From NCBI GenBank assembly GCA_046290225.1, contig JBKAGE010000073.1, forward strand, positions 20,992 to 84,991: 64,000 nt of DNA, read 5' to 3'. The translations under genes were made by a program, and so were the position numbers. Below the pieces are notes generated by a model that was given only the letters and a program-made list of their open reading frames with translations, did no database searches and was not told the origin of the DNA. Shown here piece by piece: positions 29,540-37,335 of this stretch (its first letter is position 1; each line of letters starts with the position of its first letter). Source of the DNA: Bradymonadia bacterium (GTDB lineage Bacteria > Myxococcota_A > Bradymonadia > UBA7976 > UBA1532).

Positions 29540-31687
29540 TCAGGGCAGGGCTTCGATGCATCGATCGAGGGCTGCCTCCCAGTTGGGCATGATGTCTCTG
29601 CCCACGCCGTTGGTCTCCTCGTAGTGATCCCCCGGCGGCTCGCTCAGGTAGCCCACCTCTTCGTAGTTGTAGCTGGGCACCATGTAACCGAGGAAGTCCA
29701 TGCCCAGGCCGATGAAGAAGGGGAATTCGCCGGGGAGGCGCTCGTAGACATAAGGGCCCTCTGGTGTGTTGTCCCAATCGGGCGGGTTGGTCTGGTCGGC
29801 CTTGACGATGCAGGGCTGATCGCCAGGGCTCTCAGGATCGGTGGGCAGGCCCTGATCGTCACAGGTTGGCGCCACACGGCGACCTTCGACGTCGCCGATG
29901 ACCGGGGTCTGCACCCGCGACCTGCCGGGGTAGCCGCCTACGAGGGTTTCAGGGAAGACCTCGCCGGGGGCGGTGAAGAAGGTCACTGGCCCCAGGCCCA
30001 CGACTGCGGTCTGGGTGAGCAGCTGGGGCAGGGCCGGCGCATACTGAGCGCCCACCCGGGTGACGTTGTAGATGTCGTGGACCAGCACGCCGAGAGTGAA
30101 GGCCGCGAGCTGGAAGACGCGGTTCTCGACCGAGGCGAAGAAGGTCTGGGTGGCGAAGCGCAGATCGGGGGCGTCGAGGGTGGTGAAGGCTCCATCTCCA
30201 GCGCCAAGCACTCGGGAGGCGAGGGTCTGACCGATGGCATCGGCGGCGGCGAAGGTGTGGCGGAGGCCGCCGTCGGTGTAGTCGTTGCCTGCATAGTCCC
30301 TGGCGCCGCCAGGGCCCGGGTAGATGAGGCCACCCACGGCACCGACGTACATGAGGGTGACACCACCGAAGCCTTCGAGGGCAGGCTTCATCTCACCATC
30401 CACCCCCATGGTGGCGGGCAGGCCCTCTCGGATGTACTTGCGCACAAAGTGGGGGTAGTCCGAGGTGAGGAAGGGGTTGTCGTCCCAGAGCACCTCGGGG
30501 TGGTTGGCGAAGGACATCAGGGTGCCGATGGGGCTGCCGTCGATGCCTTCGAGGCGCACCACGGGCACATTGTCGTCGAAGATGTAGGGGGTCCGGCTGT
30601 CGTTGATGGCCAGCCCCTCAGTGCCCACGTCGAGGACCGCCACCTTTGCCGTGGCAGGCTTCAGGTTGGCCACGGCTTCGGTGATGCCGGCGATGGTCTG
30701 ATCGTGGATCAGCTGCTCGAACTGCGCGTCCACCCCTCGGGCGAGGGGCAGCGGATCGCCAGGGCCCCATTGACCGGCGGTGTCGGGGGCTTCGTGGTTG
30801 TGGGTGGCGCCCATGACCAGCAGGTCCACCTCCAGCTCTGGGGGCAGATCCTCGAAGATCTTGCGGCTCTGGGGCCTCAGGAAGCCGATGGTGTCCACCA
30901 CGGCGAAGGCCACGGTGACATCGCGCTGTCGCATGACCGCGATCTGCACCTTGAGATCGTCGTGGGCGTACTTGCTGACACAACAATCCACCGCGTCACA
31001 GCCGATCTTCTCTTCAGGGCAATATTGCGCAGGCCGGCCGGAGCTGAAGCCCGCGATCCACATGCCCTGCATCACCCCGTCGCCTTCACCCTCGTCCGGG
31101 CCCGGATATCCAGCGTCGTCGGGGCAGAGGCCGTCGTAACCGCAGTCGTTCCACCGGCCTTCGATGTCGGGGGGATTGAAGTTGAGGGTGTTGTCATCTT
31201 CCAGGCCCTCTGGTCGGGCGGTCTCGAAACCGGAAGGGGTCACGACCTTGCTCACCGCTGCTGCGAGCAAAGTCGGATCACCCTCACCCATACACCCTGG
31301 CGCTCCGGGGCAGACAGTGGGGTTGGCAGGGGGCTCCCAGTAACAGATCTGATGCCCCTCTACATCCTGGCAGGTCTCTTCGGGGCGACAGTCGGCGTCG
31401 GTGACACAGCGACGATCGAAAACAGACTCACAGGCACAGTCCACCACACGCTGCAGGAGTGGATCACACATCACGGCTTCGCCACAGCCGGGTGTGGCGT
31501 CAGGTGGTCCAGCGTCTGCCACGACCTCTGCGTCGTTCATGGTGGAGGCATCGGCGCCTGCGCCCTGGTCAGGGCTCAGCTCTGCATCGGAGGTGGGGGT
31601 CGGGGTGTCGTTGCTGCTCTCGTCATCACAGGCGGTGAGCAGCGTCAAGGCGGTGCCGAGGCACAGGAGGGCGAGGGCGTGGCGCAC
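29540..31687 (-). CDS. Neutral/alkaline ceramidase-like lipoprotein
   Basis: Lipobox LTAC, Cys-rich N-terminus, ATHNHEAPD, ANHPE, PGEVFPE, HYEET. Confidence 0.7.
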   Translation of the reverse strand: MRHALALLCLGTALTLLTACDDESSNDTPTPTSDAELSPDQGAGADASTMNDAEVVADAGPPDATPGCGEAVMCDPLLQRVVDCACESVFDRRCVTDADCRPEETCQDVEGHQICYWEPPANPTVCPGAPGCMGEGDPTLLAAAVSKVVTPSGFETARPEGLEDDNTLNFNPPDIEGRWNDCGYDGLCPDDAGYPGPDEGEGDGVMQGMWIAGFSSGRPAQYCPEEKIGCDAVDCCVSKYAHDDLKVQIAVMRQRDVTVAFAVVDTIGFLRPQSRKIFEDLPPELEVDLLVMGATHNHEAPDTAGQWGPGDPLPLARGVDAQFEQLIHDQTIAGITEAVANLKPATAKVAVLDVGTEGLAINDSRTPYIFDDNVPVVRLEGIDGSPIGTLMSFANHPEVLWDDNPFLTSDYPHFVRKYIREGLPATMGVDGEMKPALEGFGGVTLMYVGAVGGLIYPGPGGARDYAGNDYTDGGLRHTFAAADAIGQTLASRVLGAGDGAFTTLDAPDLRFATQTFFASVENRVFQLAAFTLGVLVHDIYNVTRVGAQYAPALPQLLTQTAVVGLGPVTFFTAPGEVFPETLVGGYPGRSRVQTPVIGDVEGRRVAPTCDDQGLPTDPESPGDQPCIVKADQTNPPDWDNTPEGPYVYERLPGEFPFFIGLGMDFLGYMVPSYNYEEVGYLSEPPGDHYEETNGVGRDIMPNWEAALDRCIEALP

Positions 31688-31773
31688 AGTGACTCCAGGG
31701 GCGGTGTCAGAAGAAGATCTGCTGGTCGAGACAGACCTTCTGCCTACACCGGGTGCCCAGAGCAGAGCAAGTG

Positions 31774-31995
31774 TCAGCTCAGTCGGGCGCGCAGGGCTTT
31801 GACTGCGGCGTCGAACTCGGCTTCAGAGACGACGTCGACCTCTTCGTCAGGGGCCACGACGCGGGTCATGTAGTTCATCTCGCGTTTGAACTCGCCGGTC
31901 TGCCAGTCGTAGGCCAGCACGTCCATGCCACCCTCGGGGGTGCGGATGGCCTTCACCGGCCGGGCGCCGACGATGCAAAAACGGGGGAGCTGCAT
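31774..31995 (-). CDS. Small protein (73 aa), candidate immunity protein of the upstream RelA/SpoT toxin
   Basis: Starts 36 bp after the toxin stop on the same strand. GAGGAG SD and coding-like codon usage. Confidence 0.7.
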   Translation of the reverse strand: MQLPRFCIVGARPVKAIRTPEGGMDVLAYDWQTGEFKREMNYMTRVVAPDEEVDVVSEAEFDAAVKALRARLS

Positions 31996-32031
31996 GGGGA
32001 GTATCTCCTCGAATGAAGTGCGCCAGAGACG

Positions 32032-35000
32032 CTAGGAATCAGATGCGAAGGTGCCGCTCGAAGGCGACAGCCCGTCCGTGGGCCCCGGATCGGTGGAGAG
32101 GCCCGAGCCACCGTCGCCGAGGGCGCTGTCATAGGCGGCACGAGATTGGGCGTTGAGCTGCTCGATGCGGGCGAGCTCGTCAGGGGTGAGCGCGCGGCGC
32201 TCGGCCACCGCTCGGGCCTGGATGGTTCTGATCTCTTCGTAGATCTTGTGACCAACTCCACCCTTGACCTCGATGATCTGCCGCATGTGCAGCTGAATCT
32301 CAACGACGTGACCATTGCTCATGCGCACGTTGAGCAAAATATCGCGGTAGCCCTGGTCCGTCGGGTTGGAGAACCGATCCTTGAGTTTGGTGATCTCAAA
32401 CTGGCCCTGAATCTGCTCCAGCCCTCGATACACATCCTGGATGTTCTCGTAGATGATGCTGGTGCGTGCGAGGTCGGTGAGTCGACTGACATCACCACCA
32501 TAATCCGCCGCGAGCTTCTCCTCTGCACGAGGACGACCCTTCAGGTTCGGCGGGATCTTGGCCTCACCGCCAGTGGCGCCGGCGATGTCGTTGGTGACGG
32601 TGGCCAGCTCTTCTTGGGCCACCGCTGCCTGTTGTAGCGCTGGTCATCAGCTGCCCTCTGCGGGCCGCCGCTGTGCCTCAACGTCAGACCGTCGCTGGAC
32701 TGGGCGCTGGGTACGCCAGAGAGCTTCGTCGTACACCGAGCGAGATTGTGCGTTGAGCTGCTCGATGCGGCCGAGCTCCCCAGGCGAGGCACGGTTCTCG
32801 GCCTGGCGGTGGCCTCGATGGTACGGATCTCTTCGCGAGCTGTGACCTGCACCGCTCTGACCTGGGATGATCTGCTTCATGTGCAGCTGGATCTCGACAA
32901 CGCCATTTCATACGCACATTGAGAAATATCGCGGTAGCCTGATCTGCGGGTTGGCGAAGCGATCCTTGAGCTTGGTGACCTCAAAGCGGCCTGGATTGTT
33001 CAAGCCGCGGTACACGTCATGGTTCGTAGATGATGCTGGTGCGTGCGAGGTCAGTGAGGCGGCTGACGTCACCACCATAATCCGCTGCGAGCTTCTCTTC
33101 GGCGCGGGGCCGACCCTTCAGGTTCGGTGGGATCTTCGCCTCGCCACCCGTTGCACCTGCAATGTCGTTCGTGACAGTGGCCAGCTCTTCTTGAGCCACC
33201 GCAGCCTGTTCGTACAGCTCGTCTAGATCTGTTGCCCTCTGCGGACCCCCAGGTTGAGCCTCTGCGTCTGCACCTTCAGCGGACTTCGTGCCGCTGGTGC
33301 CACCAGACATCGCATCGTCGTACACCGCGCGAGACTGGGCGTTGAGATCTTCGATGCGGGCGAGCTCTTCAGGGGTGAGCGGGCGGTTCTCGGCCTTGGC
33401 CTTGGCCTCGATGGTCCGAATATCCTCGTAGAGCTTGTGACCTGCGCCACTCTTCACTTCGATGATCTGCTTCATGTGAAGCTGAATCTCGACGACGTGG
33501 CCATTGCTCATACGCACATTGAGCAGAATGTCGCGGTAACCCTGATCTGTGGGGTTGGCGAAGCGATCCTTGAGCTTTGTGACCTCGAACCGACCTTGGA
33601 TTTGCTCCAAGCCGCGATACACGTCATCGAGAGATTCGTAGATGATGCTGGTGCGTGCGAGGTCGGTGAGTCGACTGACGTCACCACCATAATCCGCCGC
33701 GAGCTTCTCCTCAGCCCGAGGCCGACCCTTCAGGTTCGGCGGGATCTTGGCCTCACCGCCAGTGGCGCCGGCGATGTCGTTGGTGACGGTGGCCAGCTCT
33801 TCTTGGGCCACCGCTGCCTGTTGGTATAGCTCGTCCAGATCAGCTGCCCTCTGCGGGCCGCCAGGCTGTGCCTCAACGTCAGCACCGTCGCTGGACTTGG
33901 GGGCGCTGGTACCGCCAGAGAGCGCTTCGTCGTACACCGAGCGAGATTGTGCGTTGAGCTGCTCGATGCGGCCGAGCTCCTCAGGCGTGAGGGCACGGTT
34001 CTCGGCCTTGGCGGTGGCCTCGATGGTACGGATCTCTTCGTAGAGCTTGTGACCTGCACCGCTCTTGACCTCGATGATCTGCTTCATGTGAAGCTGAATC
34101 TCGACGACGTGACCGTTGCTCATACGCACGTTGAGCAAAATATCGCGGTAACCCTGATCTGTGGGGTTGGCGAAGCGATCTTTGAGCTTCGTGACCTCGA
34201 ACCGGCCTTGGATCTGCTCCAGGCCGCGGTACACGTCATCAAGGCTCTCGTAGATGATGCTGGTGCGTGCGAGGTCAGTGAGGCGGCTGACGTCACCACC
34301 ATAATCCGCTGCGAGCTTCTCTTCGGCGCGGGGCCGACCCTTCAGGTTCGGTGGGATCTTCGCCTCACCACCTGTAGAGCCAGCGATGTCATTGGTGACG
34401 GTGGCCAGCTCTTCTTGGGCCACCCGCGCTTGTTCGTACAGCTCGTCCAGATCTGCTGCCCTTTGCGGGCCGCCAGGCTGAGCCTCGACATCTGCACCCT
34501 CGGTGGATTTGGGGCCGCTGGTGCCGCCAGACATTGCTTCGTCGTACACCGAGCGAGACTGTGCGTTGAGCTGCTCGATGCGGCCGAGCTCCTCAGGCGT
34601 GAGGGCGCGGTTCTCAGCTTTGGCCCGAGCCTCGATAGTGCGGATCTCCTCATAGAGGGAGTGCCCAGCGCCGCTCTTGACCTCGATGATCTGCTTCATG
34701 TGAAGCTGGATTTCGACGACGTGGCCGTTGCTCATACGCACGTTGAGCAAAATATCGCGGTAACCCTGATCTGTGGGGTTGGCGAAGCGATCTTTGAGCT
34801 TTGTGACCTCGAACCGACCTTGGATCTGCTCCAAGCCGCGGTACACGTCATCAAGGCTCTCGTAGATGATGCTGGTGCGTGCGAGGTCGGTCAGTCGGCT
34901 GACGTCACCACCATAGTCCGCTGCGAGCTTCTCCTCTGCTCGAGGCCTGCCCTTCAGGTTTGGCGGGATCTTGGCCTCACCGCCAGTGGCGCCGGCGATG

Positions 35001-37285
35001 TCGTTGGTGACAGTGGCCAACTCCTCTTGAGCCACCCGCGCCTGTTCGTATAGCTCGTCCAGGTCGGCCGCCCTCTGCGGACCAGTGGGGCCAGTCTCCT
35101 TCGGGGCCCCGTCAGGGGTTGTTTTGTTCGCAGACCGAACGCTGCCTGTCTCAATGTCACCTGCTGCGGCGAGAGCATCGGCATTTTGAGCGCCTGGTGC
35201 TGCAATGTCACCACCAGCAGTGGAGAGTCCGTCATCGACTCCACTGGTTGCAGGCGTCACATCGCCCCCGGCGGTGTTGGCAGGCAGGTCATCGAGGTTG
35301 AGCGTGGTGCCGGGGCTGTTGAGCGCACCTGTGCTGTTGCGGGCGGCGCCGACGCGAGCGAGATCGTCACCGGAGCCCTTGAGGCTGATGGAGATCAGGG
35401 CCCCAGTGAGCGCTGCGGACTGCAGCAGACGCAGCAGCTCGTCGGTGCGCTGTTGCGGATCAGGGTTCTTCATGATCCGCTCGTAATCGGCCAGGTACTT
35501 GTCGGCCAGGATGATGCCCTGACCGGCGTCGGCGCTGAACTGACCGATGAGTACGCCCCTGGCGATGTTGGTGCCGTTGCGGCCATTCATGATGACCGTG
35601 GCGCCCTTGACCCAGACACCGGCGAAGACGCTGCTCACGATGGTGAGGGCGTCGAGGGCGTCGTCCTGAGGTGAGCTGAAGCCCTCGGCGTGTCGCTGGC
35701 TGATGCGGATCGCTGCGCCGGCGGAAGCCGCCACCGCGGAGGCGAGCACGAGGCCGGCGACGACGCGGCTGCCGGGGATGGGCAGCACCGCCAGCGCCAG
35801 TGCCCCGAGGCCTGTTGCGAGGCCTACAGTGTCGAAGAACTCGGAGATCGAGTCCCAGAAGCTCTGGCCATCGGTCTGGAACTCCTGGGCGATGGGGGTG
35901 CCCGCAGCCTCCGCTGGGATCTCCAACTGGATCATCCCCGGGGGGTAGCGGTTGCCGCTGCGCCAGCTGCTGATGGCGTCGTCGATGGCCGATGCGGCGT
36001 CACTGCCGGTGCCGGTGTATTCACCTGTGCAGCGGCGATCGGCTGGGGCGGTGACGTCGACGAGCTTCCAGGTCTGGCGGCTGCCCGACTGCACACAGGC
36101 GACGAAGGCCTGCAAGGTGGTGACGCGCGCCTGCTCGCGATCGACGTGCACCGCCTTGAAGGGGATGCGCTCTCGGCCATTGGTGCTGGCCATGCGCTCT
36201 TCGAACTTCTCGATCTGGTTGTCGTAGGCTTGCTGCTGCTCTGGGGTCAGGGCGCGGCTGCCCTCTTGCTCCGAGGCCGACTTGATCGCGTCTACATAGC
36301 GACGCTGCCCCTCGAGGCGAGCGGTGGGATCAGTGGTGGCGGCGTTCTCGAGGGCACCCGAGGCCATCTCGCCCTCAGCGATCACGGTGAGGGGGTACTC
36401 GAAGTACTCCGGCTCCCGCCGCTGGCGCTCGCTTGACGAATAGAACACCGAGCGGCACACGATCTTGTGGTTGCCGGGGATCTCTGGGGTGTACTCGACC
36501 TTGTAGTCGTCTCCCAGGATCTCCATGGCGTCGGTGTCGTGCTTTGAAGACATCGACGCGTCGCGCACGACCGACCACTCATACGAGTAGTAGGAGCCCT
36601 GGGCGTACATCTCGGCGTTGCGCTCGATGCGGTACGACAACGCCGTGCCCGGCACCGCCACCTTGACGTCGGGCTCGGCCCGGATGTGGGCGTGACGATC
36701 GGCGATGGTCTCCGAAGTGTCCTGCTGGTAAGAGCCCCCTGCACCTGAGGAGACGCCCGCCCGGGTCAGGAGGGCCTGAGCGGTGCGCAGCTCGGAGCCG
36801 CTCATGTCGCCGATGATGTCGTCGACGAGGCGGGTGCCATACTTGCGCTCGTACCCGTCGGCGATGGCCTGCACGATCTCCGGGGGCTGGTTCAGGATGC
36901 GGTAGATGCCCTGCTCGTCGGTCCCCCAACCTTCGATGGCCCCCCGGATCTTCTCGATGTCCTGAGTGACCTGGGCCTCCATGTTCGCCGTACCAGCGTC
37001 TTCCTGGAACTGGATGGACCGCATCTCGTTCGACTGGCTATTGGTGCTGTCCGGAGGCGGCGGCGCTGAGAAGCCACCCTGGAAGCCGCCCATGAGCTCC
37101 GCCGACTGGCCGGACTGGCTCTGCATTTGGAGGGCTGGCGCAGGGGCAGGCGCGGGTGCAGGCGCCTGTGCGGGGGCCGGTGCGGGGGCTGGGGCTGCAG
37201 GGGTCTTGTCGGACACGACGGCTCCTGAGGTACCAGTGGGGGCGACAGGTGGGGGCGACAGCGTGTAGGTATACTGAAACTTCAC
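32032..37285 (-). CDS. Giant polymorphic-toxin-like protein: annexin-like repeat, hydrophobic segment, five tandem RelA/SpoT synthetase domains (frameshifted in repeat 4 as assembled)
   Basis: ORFs 33017-37297 and 32032-32622 are joined by a degenerate copy of the repeat. Each intact repeat has LKGRPRAEEK / DLART / GYRD / EIQLH. Annexin motif GWGTDEQGI. The likely start is GTG 37285 after GGAGGT. Confidence 0.85.
32035..35090 (-). repeat. Tandem array of five 612-bp (204-aa) units
   Basis: The equivalent position recurs at 35068, 34456, 33844 and 33232 (612-bp spacing) and at 32651 (581 bp, shortened by deletions). Confidence 0.95.
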
Positions 37286-37335
37286 CTCAGCTGTCACCTC
37301 CAGGGGGCAATGTTTTGAACCGAAACGCTACATCG

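What the first reader, a model, noticed from the sequence alone, without database searches (positions are those of the whole stretch)
31774..31995. 73-aa candidate immunity protein against an alarmone synthetase
Seen: a small ORF with its own GAGGAG SD directly downstream of the toxin, with a beta-rich N-terminus and a C-terminal helix (VDVVSEAEFDAAV). Established: the Tas1 immunity protein Tis1 is a similarly small non-enzymatic binder encoded next to its toxin. Inference: this is a binding-type immunity protein rather than an HD hydrolase, since it has no HD motif. A single gene would have to neutralise five domains per toxin chain, which implies much higher translation than the toxin.
Basis: inference. 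Interest (0 to 1): 0.7.

Follow-up and report, generated by a model that had tools for sequence, protein, structure and literature searches.

The report
Tis1-like antidote to five-repeat alarmone toxin
A real 73-amino-acid gene sits right behind a bacterial toxin gene carrying five tandem alarmone-synthetase repeats, and likely encodes the small antidote protein predicted to bind and block those enzyme domains: a divergent, so far unmodelled version of a known toxin-immunity pairing.

Summary
The ORF (31774-31995, minus strand, GAGGAG 9 nt before the ATG) is real and belongs to a widespread family (418 clusters at 50% identity) with no Pfam, NCBIfam, PHROG or PADLOC match. The upstream gene carries five 612-nt repeats whose best PDB match is Tas1. 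Linkage is strong: 10 of 13 phylum genomes with the small gene also have the toxin, against 4 of 387 without it. All 3 Deinococcus plasmid synthetase genes found toxin-first are followed by a homolog. Homologs are fused to HD hydrolases and to degenerate synthetases. A confident model ranks Tis1 (6ox6_B) 3rd of 48,161 chains, at a modest Z of 4.2. It most likely works like Tis1/IapK but fails the Tis1 Pfam profile. Caveats: 21 of 35 homolog clusters have no synthetase nearby. Repeat 4 is frameshifted as assembled (likely long-read error), so 'five domains per chain' is inferred. Nothing here shows higher translation. Verdict: a new variant of a known kind.

The parts
31774..31995 (-). 73-aa predicted Tis1/IapK-like immunity gene
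32005..32010 (-). Shine-Dalgarno GAGGAG, 9 nt before the ATG; predicted to lie partly in a weak hairpin
32032..32666 (-). Synthetase repeat 5, the C-terminal and most diverged copy; open frame 32622-32032, RelA_SpoT PF04607, best PDB match Tas1
32667..33247 (-). Synthetase repeat 4, frameshifted as assembled
32623..33025 (-). Deletion-rich tract: 37 nt missing in 23 events against 2 inserted, relative to the repeat 2-3 junction; likely long-read assembly error
33248..33859 (-). Synthetase repeat 3 (intact)
33860..34471 (-). Synthetase repeat 2 (intact)
34472..35083 (-). Synthetase repeat 1 (intact)
33017..37297 (-). Main toxin ORF as assembled (1426 aa; true start uncertain, GTG at 37297, 37285 or 37216)
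35702..35839 (-). Hydrophobic, possibly membrane-crossing segment of the toxin (about aa 487-532)
36368..36763 (-). Ntox3 domain (PF15536, above cut-off); described as PVC/eCIS-linked and Annexin-associated
36794..36964 (-). Annexin domain (PF00191, above cut-off)

Best explanation
The 73-aa ORF likely encodes a Tis1/IapK-type immunity protein, predicted to bind each Tas1-like alarmone-synthetase repeat of the toxin encoded just upstream and block its active site. Shown: the gene is real, conserved and non-HD; it sits 36 nt behind a polymorphic-toxin gene with Annexin, Ntox3, a hydrophobic segment and five synthetase repeats; its family travels with this synthetase clade. Inferred: the two genes are co-transcribed. 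One immunity chain would be needed per repeat, and since the intact repeats are nearly identical in protein (3-19 changed residues of 165) one gene can cover all of them. The toxin is probably cargo of the genome's eCIS and, freed from its immunity protein in a target bacterium, would drain ATP by making (p)ppApp or another alarmone. Unlinked small HD hydrolases in the genome may act as enzymatic back-up.
For: Toxin identity: best PDB match is Tas1, E 1.3e-6 for repeat 5 and 1.4e-11 for the 21-row profile. Genome co-occurrence in 400 phylum genomes other than the window's: small gene in 13, toxin in 14, both in 10, spread over 7 genera; toxin in 4 of 387 genomes lacking the small gene. Where the synthetase is full-length, C-terminal and has downstream sequence, the homolog follows directly in 6 of 6 (L071, L072, L075, L077, L080, L081). 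In L074 a two-domain toxin is followed by a fusion that ends in a homolog. Toxin-first test: all 3 Deinococcus plasmid synthetase genes (29-31% identical to repeat 5) are followed by a homolog at 44-56 bits. Both of the 2 plasmid hits of the 73-aa protein lie right behind a synthetase. Fusions: 7 of 46 long homologs carry HD_4, and 4 join a synthetase-like domain in one ORF. L011 and L077 show the apk-immunity-HD order described for Apk2. Fold: Tis1 6ox6_B is rank 3 of 48,161, Z 4.2, rmsd 3.1, 60 residues aligned over nearly the whole of both chains. The only named family among the Atlas neighbours is PF24154 Tis1_ImmP, on 11% of one cluster at score 0.82, a lead only. Published Tis1-like proteins are already only 24% identical to Tis1 (PMC10083569, passages). 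Repeats are under purifying selection, for example 39 synonymous against 3 nonsynonymous codon changes for repeats 1 and 2.
Against: No sequence match to Tis1: 0 of 81 aligned members hit PF24154, PF24154 does not hit this locus, and PDB sequence searches give nothing below E 0.1. Z 4.2 at 3% identity is within the range the tool calls a common arrangement, and two unrelated chains rank higher (Z 5.5 and 4.9). 21 of 35 homolog clusters (37 of 68 loci) have no synthetase in the fetched flank, including a 12-locus cluster, several of them seen beside secG and a TetR gene. Of 8 plasmid and phage synthetase loci inspected, 5 have no detectable homolog: 2 have other small genes or domains that match only weakly and 3 have none found. 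The co-occurrence count is inflated by kinship, and the toxin profile was built partly from these same loci.
Confidence: 0.8

Rival explanations
1. It partners the synthetase but not as a Tis1 homolog or active-site plug: a convergent small binder that inhibits allosterically or chaperones the toxin for loading into the eCIS.
For: No sequence link to PF24154; fold Z only 4.2; profile-profile matches to the small genes behind other Apk-like toxins are weak (probability 0.6% and 2.4%).
Against: A loading chaperone would be useless as an orphan or fused to HD hydrolases and Imm32. It also follows stand-alone Deinococcus synthetases with no apparent delivery domain. Tis1 was named before the fold search and came 3rd of 48,161.
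Confidence: 0.1
2. It is a general defensive domain of polyimmunity loci, or the immunity protein for the Ntox3 domain, and only hitchhikes behind synthetases.
For: Most homolog clusters have no synthetase nearby (21 of 35), and the domain is fused to many different partners. The toxin also carries an Ntox3 domain with no listed immunity family.
Against: It follows synthetase domains on toxins with unrelated N-termini in cyanobacteria, Myxococcota-type genomes and Deinococcus. Only 4 of 387 genomes without it have the synthetase.
Confidence: 0.06
3. The locus is decaying: the repeat-4 frameshifts are real, the toxin is truncated or silent, and the small gene now works mainly as orphan protection against relatives' toxins.
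For: 37 nt are missing across about 400 nt of repeats 4 and 5 as assembled, in a genome rated 99% complete.
Against: The pattern is 23 deletions against 2 insertions confined to one tract, 16 of 23 tied to same-letter runs against a 36% background, with flanks nearly identical to repeats 2 and 3. That is typical of unpolished long-read repeats. Repeats 1-3 and 5 show purifying selection. Even if the frameshifts are real, three intact domains remain in the 1426-aa ORF.
Confidence: 0.04

Closest known systems
Tis1 of Pseudomonas aeruginosa (PDB 6OX6_B, Pfam PF24154), immunity to Tas1/Apk1
   Same: Similar size (76 against 73 residues), encoded right behind a Tas1-like synthetase, non-enzymatic, similar predicted fold (Z 4.2, rmsd 3.1, 60 aligned).
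   Different: 3% identity in the structural alignment and no PF24154 hit in 81 members. The toxin has Annexin and Ntox3 rather than PAAR, five repeats rather than one domain, and the genome shows eCIS tube genes but no T6SS VipB.
IapK / BcTis1 of MuF-Apk2 prophage toxins (PMC12226406; PMC10083569)
   Same: Same gene order; relatives show the synthetase-immunity-HD arrangement or immunity-HD fusions.
   Different: Not in a phage head module, none found in viral contigs, no adjacent Aph1-like gene in the window. Only weak profile similarity to the small gene of a Bordetella phage Apk2-like locus.
Aph1 / small alarmone hydrolases
   Same: Protect against Apk toxins; fused to this family in 7 of 46 long homologs.
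   Different: The 73-aa protein has no histidine and no HD domain.
Exported alarmone synthetases, including DUF4157/eCIS-linked ones (PMC12691689)
   Same: Apk1-like domain on a secreted-toxin scaffold; eCIS delivery already proposed for 7 of 1,369 sequences.
   Different: Annexin-Ntox3 scaffold with five tandem synthetase domains and one immunity gene. None of the other 14 toxin-positive genomes of 400 shows tandem copies.

Membership tests
Tis1/IapK binding immunity proteins | Small ORF directly downstream of a Tas1/Apk-like synthetase toxin | tested here: met
   36 nt behind repeat 5; same order in 11 of 35 homolog clusters, one of them an in-ORF fusion, and 3 of 3 Deinococcus loci
Tis1/IapK binding immunity proteins | Non-enzymatic, no HD motif | tested here: met
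   No histidine in the sequence; no HD family hit
Tis1 (Pfam PF24154 Tis1_ImmP) | Profile match above the curated cut-off | tested here: not met
   0 of 81 members; no hit at this locus; 0 of 401 phylum genomes above cut-off
Tis1/IapK binding immunity proteins | Tis1 fold | tested here: inconclusive
   6ox6_B rank 3 of 48,161, Z 4.2, rmsd 3.1, 60 aligned; suggestive but below the tool's bar for a sure match
Tis1/IapK binding immunity proteins | Direct binding that occludes the toxin active site | not tested
Tis1/IapK binding immunity proteins | Rescues cells from the cognate toxin | not testable with these tools
   Needs co-expression
Aph1 / SAH hydrolase immunity | HD motif and alpha-helical hydrolase domain | tested here: not met
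Apk1/Apk2 (upstream toxin) | Tas1-like synthetase domain | tested here: met
   Tas1 is the best PDB match; PF04607 above cut-off
Apk1/Apk2 (upstream toxin) | N-terminal PAAR (Apk1) or MuF (Apk2) domain | tested here: not met
   Pfam finds Annexin and Ntox3 instead
Apk1/Apk2 (upstream toxin) | Adenosine-type syn motifs and (p)ppApp product | tested here: inconclusive
   By eye, syn2 (RTS) and syn4 (QLH) resemble the Apk types RYT and YH, but syn3 is DxL, neither GxN nor SxH; some Apk1-like enzymes make (p)ppGpp

The most novel reading that the evidence does not exclude
This is the founding member of a large, unmodelled Tis1-fold family that guards a GYRD-type alarmone-synthetase clade across phyla in four forms: cognate immunity to an eCIS toxin with five active sites on one chain, hoarded orphan immunity, dual binder-plus-HD-hydrolase fusions, and single-chain synthetase-immunity fusions or plasmid toxin-antitoxin pairs that could be CapRel-like, trigger-released defence switches.
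Probability: 0.15. Interest if true: 0.65.

Novelty: new variant of a known kind. Interest (0 to 1): 0.36.

Why it matters
It extends Tis1/IapK-type immunity to a sequence family that the four libraries searched here do not model (418 clusters). It links that family to a likely eCIS-delivered alarmone toxin and gives a natural test of how one small immunity gene copes with a toxin carrying several active sites per chain. The mechanism itself is already known from Tas1-Tis1 and Apk2-IapK, so the surprise for a specialist is moderate.

Tried and rejected
Family libraries: no Pfam, NCBIfam, PHROG or PADLOC hit for the 73-aa protein. PDB sequence searches gave only noise. Foldseek against PDB found nothing at E<=0.001; against BFVD only weak rows, mostly unnamed or uncharacterised, best E 0.015. 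A natural synthetase-immunity fusion from another organism (P0027) folded with both domains well modelled but pTM 0.57 and a disordered linker. This gives no support for docking and is no evidence against it, since the alignment was largely unpaired and the synthetase degenerate. Its synthetase part ranks Tas1 first at Z 10.6, tied with other small alarmone synthetases. Alignments A7 and A8 were misaligned and discarded. Viral contigs: 0 of 30 pattern matches were relatives. Profile-profile bridges to other small genes behind Apk-like domains were not significant. P0015 among the profile hits is an Ig-repeat false positive. No sigma-70-type promoter and no minus-strand terminator were found in 31500-32700. 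No RNA holder listed. The in-frame placement of toxin stop and immunity start holds in only 8 of 22 pairs, so read-through was not pursued. Four look-ups of earlier findings were empty. Paper searches for tandem alarmone-synthetase repeats with contractile injection (0 papers), orphan Tis1/IapK, Tas1 with tandem domains and eCIS (nothing relevant by listing) and tandem toxin domains with a single immunity gene (one general paper) found no description of this locus type. The library lacks most subscription papers, and the supplements of PMC12691689 and PMC10083569, which list hundreds of homologs, were not read and may include this clade.

Full report
Observation. The ORF is as described: 31774-31995 on the minus strand, 73 aa. 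GAGGAG lies at 32010-32005, 9 nt before the ATG, and the upstream stop is 36 nt away. It has no histidine and is single-copy in the genome. Nine homologs at 59-84% identity and 418 representatives at E<=1e-3, 158 of them at 1e-10, show a real gene family. No Pfam, NCBIfam, PHROG or PADLOC model matches it.

The upstream gene. It has Annexin (aa 112-168) and Ntox3 (aa 179-310) domains above cut-off, a hydrophobic stretch near aa 487-532, then five 612-nt repeats. The best solved relative of a repeat is Tas1 (E 1.3e-6; 1.4e-11 with a 21-row profile). Intact repeats are 83-91% identical in DNA with mostly synonymous changes (39:3 for repeats 1 and 2; 40-53 against 18-19 for repeat 5), so they are true, selected duplications. 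A contig of run X1 bridges the repeat 2-3 junction with 12 differing letters in 185, so a relative also has tandem copies. As assembled, 32623-33025 lacks 37 nt in 23 events against 2 inserted, 16 of 23 tied to same-letter runs against a 36% background, and its flanks are near-copies of repeats 2 and 3. I read this as long-read error in a repeat, but it is not proven; on the deposited sequence the main chain has three intact domains. Annexin plus Ntox3 is described as a PVC/eCIS architecture (PMC3482391, passages). The genome has two T4 gp19-type tube genes in a sheath-baseplate-like cluster and no VipB, so eCIS delivery is likely but inferred. The product is uncertain: two syn motifs look Apk-like by eye and the third does not, and some Apk1-like enzymes make (p)ppGpp (PMC12691689, abstract, section 9 and passages).

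Linkage. In 400 phylum genomes other than the window's own, 13 have the small gene and 14 the synthetase, and 10 have both, in 7 genera. Fisher p is 1e-14, overstated by kinship and by a toxin profile partly built from these loci. From the toxin side, all 6 full-length C-terminal synthetases with downstream sequence are followed directly by a homolog. One more (L074) has a second toxin domain and a fusion that ends in a homolog. One ends at a contig edge, one is fused to the homolog, three are internal domains of giant proteins, and four diverged ones have none (16 loci). In public plasmids and phages I inspected 8 of 15 records hit by repeat 5. All 3 Deinococcus loci have a homolog behind the synthetase (44-56 bits). 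A Bordetella phage and an Enterococcus plasmid have other small genes or domains plus an HD hydrolase, and 3 have nothing found. Conversely, both of the 2 plasmid hits of the 73-aa protein lie right behind a synthetase. From the immunity side the picture is looser: of 68 loci in 35 clusters at 80% identity, 11 clusters are adjacent to or fused with a synthetase, 3 have one nearby, and 21 have none in the fetched flank (1.5-6 kb where the contig allows). Of 46 long homologs, 7 carry HD_4 and one Imm32; four join a synthetase-like domain in one ORF. Orphans and such fusions fit the polyimmunity loci and proteins described in PMC3482391 (passages), but that is inference.

Fold. The model is confident (pLDDT 96, pTM 0.84; 81 sequences). 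Among 48,161 chains, Tis1 (6ox6_B) ranks 3rd: Z 4.2, rmsd 3.1, 60 residues aligned across nearly all of both proteins, 3% identity. The Z alone is unremarkable and two unrelated chains score 5.5 and 4.9, but Tis1 was the hypothesis named in advance. The Atlas gives PF24154 as the only named neighbour family (11% of one cluster, score 0.82, a lead only). Sequence profiles do not connect the two: 0 of 81 members hit PF24154.

Mechanism. Tis1 and IapK neutralise their toxins by binding and occluding the active site, largely cognate-specifically, with Aph1 as an optional enzymatic partner; BcTis1 is only 24% identical to Tis1 (PMC10083569, passages and section 7; PMC12226406, parts 1-3 of 4; PMC8118318, passages). 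The 73-aa protein most likely does the same, one chain per repeat (confidence 0.8). The claim of much higher translation is not supported by anything here: SD duplex energy is -8.7 kcal/mol against -5.2 to -15.0 for three possible toxin starts, and the SD is predicted in a weak hairpin. Two unlinked small HD genes exist in the genome, one resembling the HD proteins found next to synthetase-immunity pairs in relatives, and may share the load.

Verdict. It works like Tis1/IapK and is probably a remote homolog, but it is not a member of PF24154 by profile. The family and the five-repeat, likely eCIS-borne toxin are a new variant of a known system. My paper searches found no description of it, though unread supplements may list the clade. 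Interest 0.36.

Noticed in passing
P0027, P0112, P0137, P0099; L066:1465-2187 (G315): Single ORFs join a synthetase-like domain, often with altered catalytic motifs, to this immunity domain in either order, reminiscent of fused CapRel-type toxin-antitoxins (CapRel comparison recalled and).
   Followed up: partly
L100:1782-2653, L102:950-2198, L103:1180-2232 (Deinococcus plasmids): Stand-alone synthetase genes with no apparent delivery domain followed by a homolog, one preceded by an HTH gene: toxin-antitoxin-like modules.
   Followed up: partly
G000:C82:194338-213619: eCIS-like cluster with two sheath-like and two tube genes plus baseplate-like genes; candidate delivery device for the toxin.
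   Followed up: partly
G000:C82 about 67.6-68.1 kb (L094) and G000:C47:43195-43788 (L093): Two unlinked small HD_4 genes; the C82 one resembles the HD proteins beside synthetase-immunity pairs in L011 and L077.
   Followed up: partly
L013-L022, L027, L028: A conserved orphan homolog, in several loci between secG (with a probable tRNA) and a TetR-like gene, with no synthetase in the flank.
   Followed up: no
L003, L005, L006, L031-L034, L061, L063, L064: The immunity domain is fused N-terminally to an unnamed domain of about 165 aa in several relatives.
   Followed up: no
L001:6001-10057: In a Labilithrix genome the synthetase gene and the homolog are convergent rather than co-oriented, and the synthetase is not C-terminal.
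   Followed up: no
L078 (G167), L079 and L087 (G262): The same synthetase domain lies inside giant open frames of 3,300-9,000 aa with no adjacent homolog.
   Followed up: no
L096:2517-3155: In an Enterococcus plasmid an 80-aa stretch weakly resembling this family is in frame with the annotated HD gene behind an Apk2-like gene, so the annotated start may be too late.
   Followed up: partly
window 29540-31687 (-): 715-aa lipoprotein-like ORF directly downstream of the immunity gene with no Pfam hit at E 0.1.
   Followed up: no
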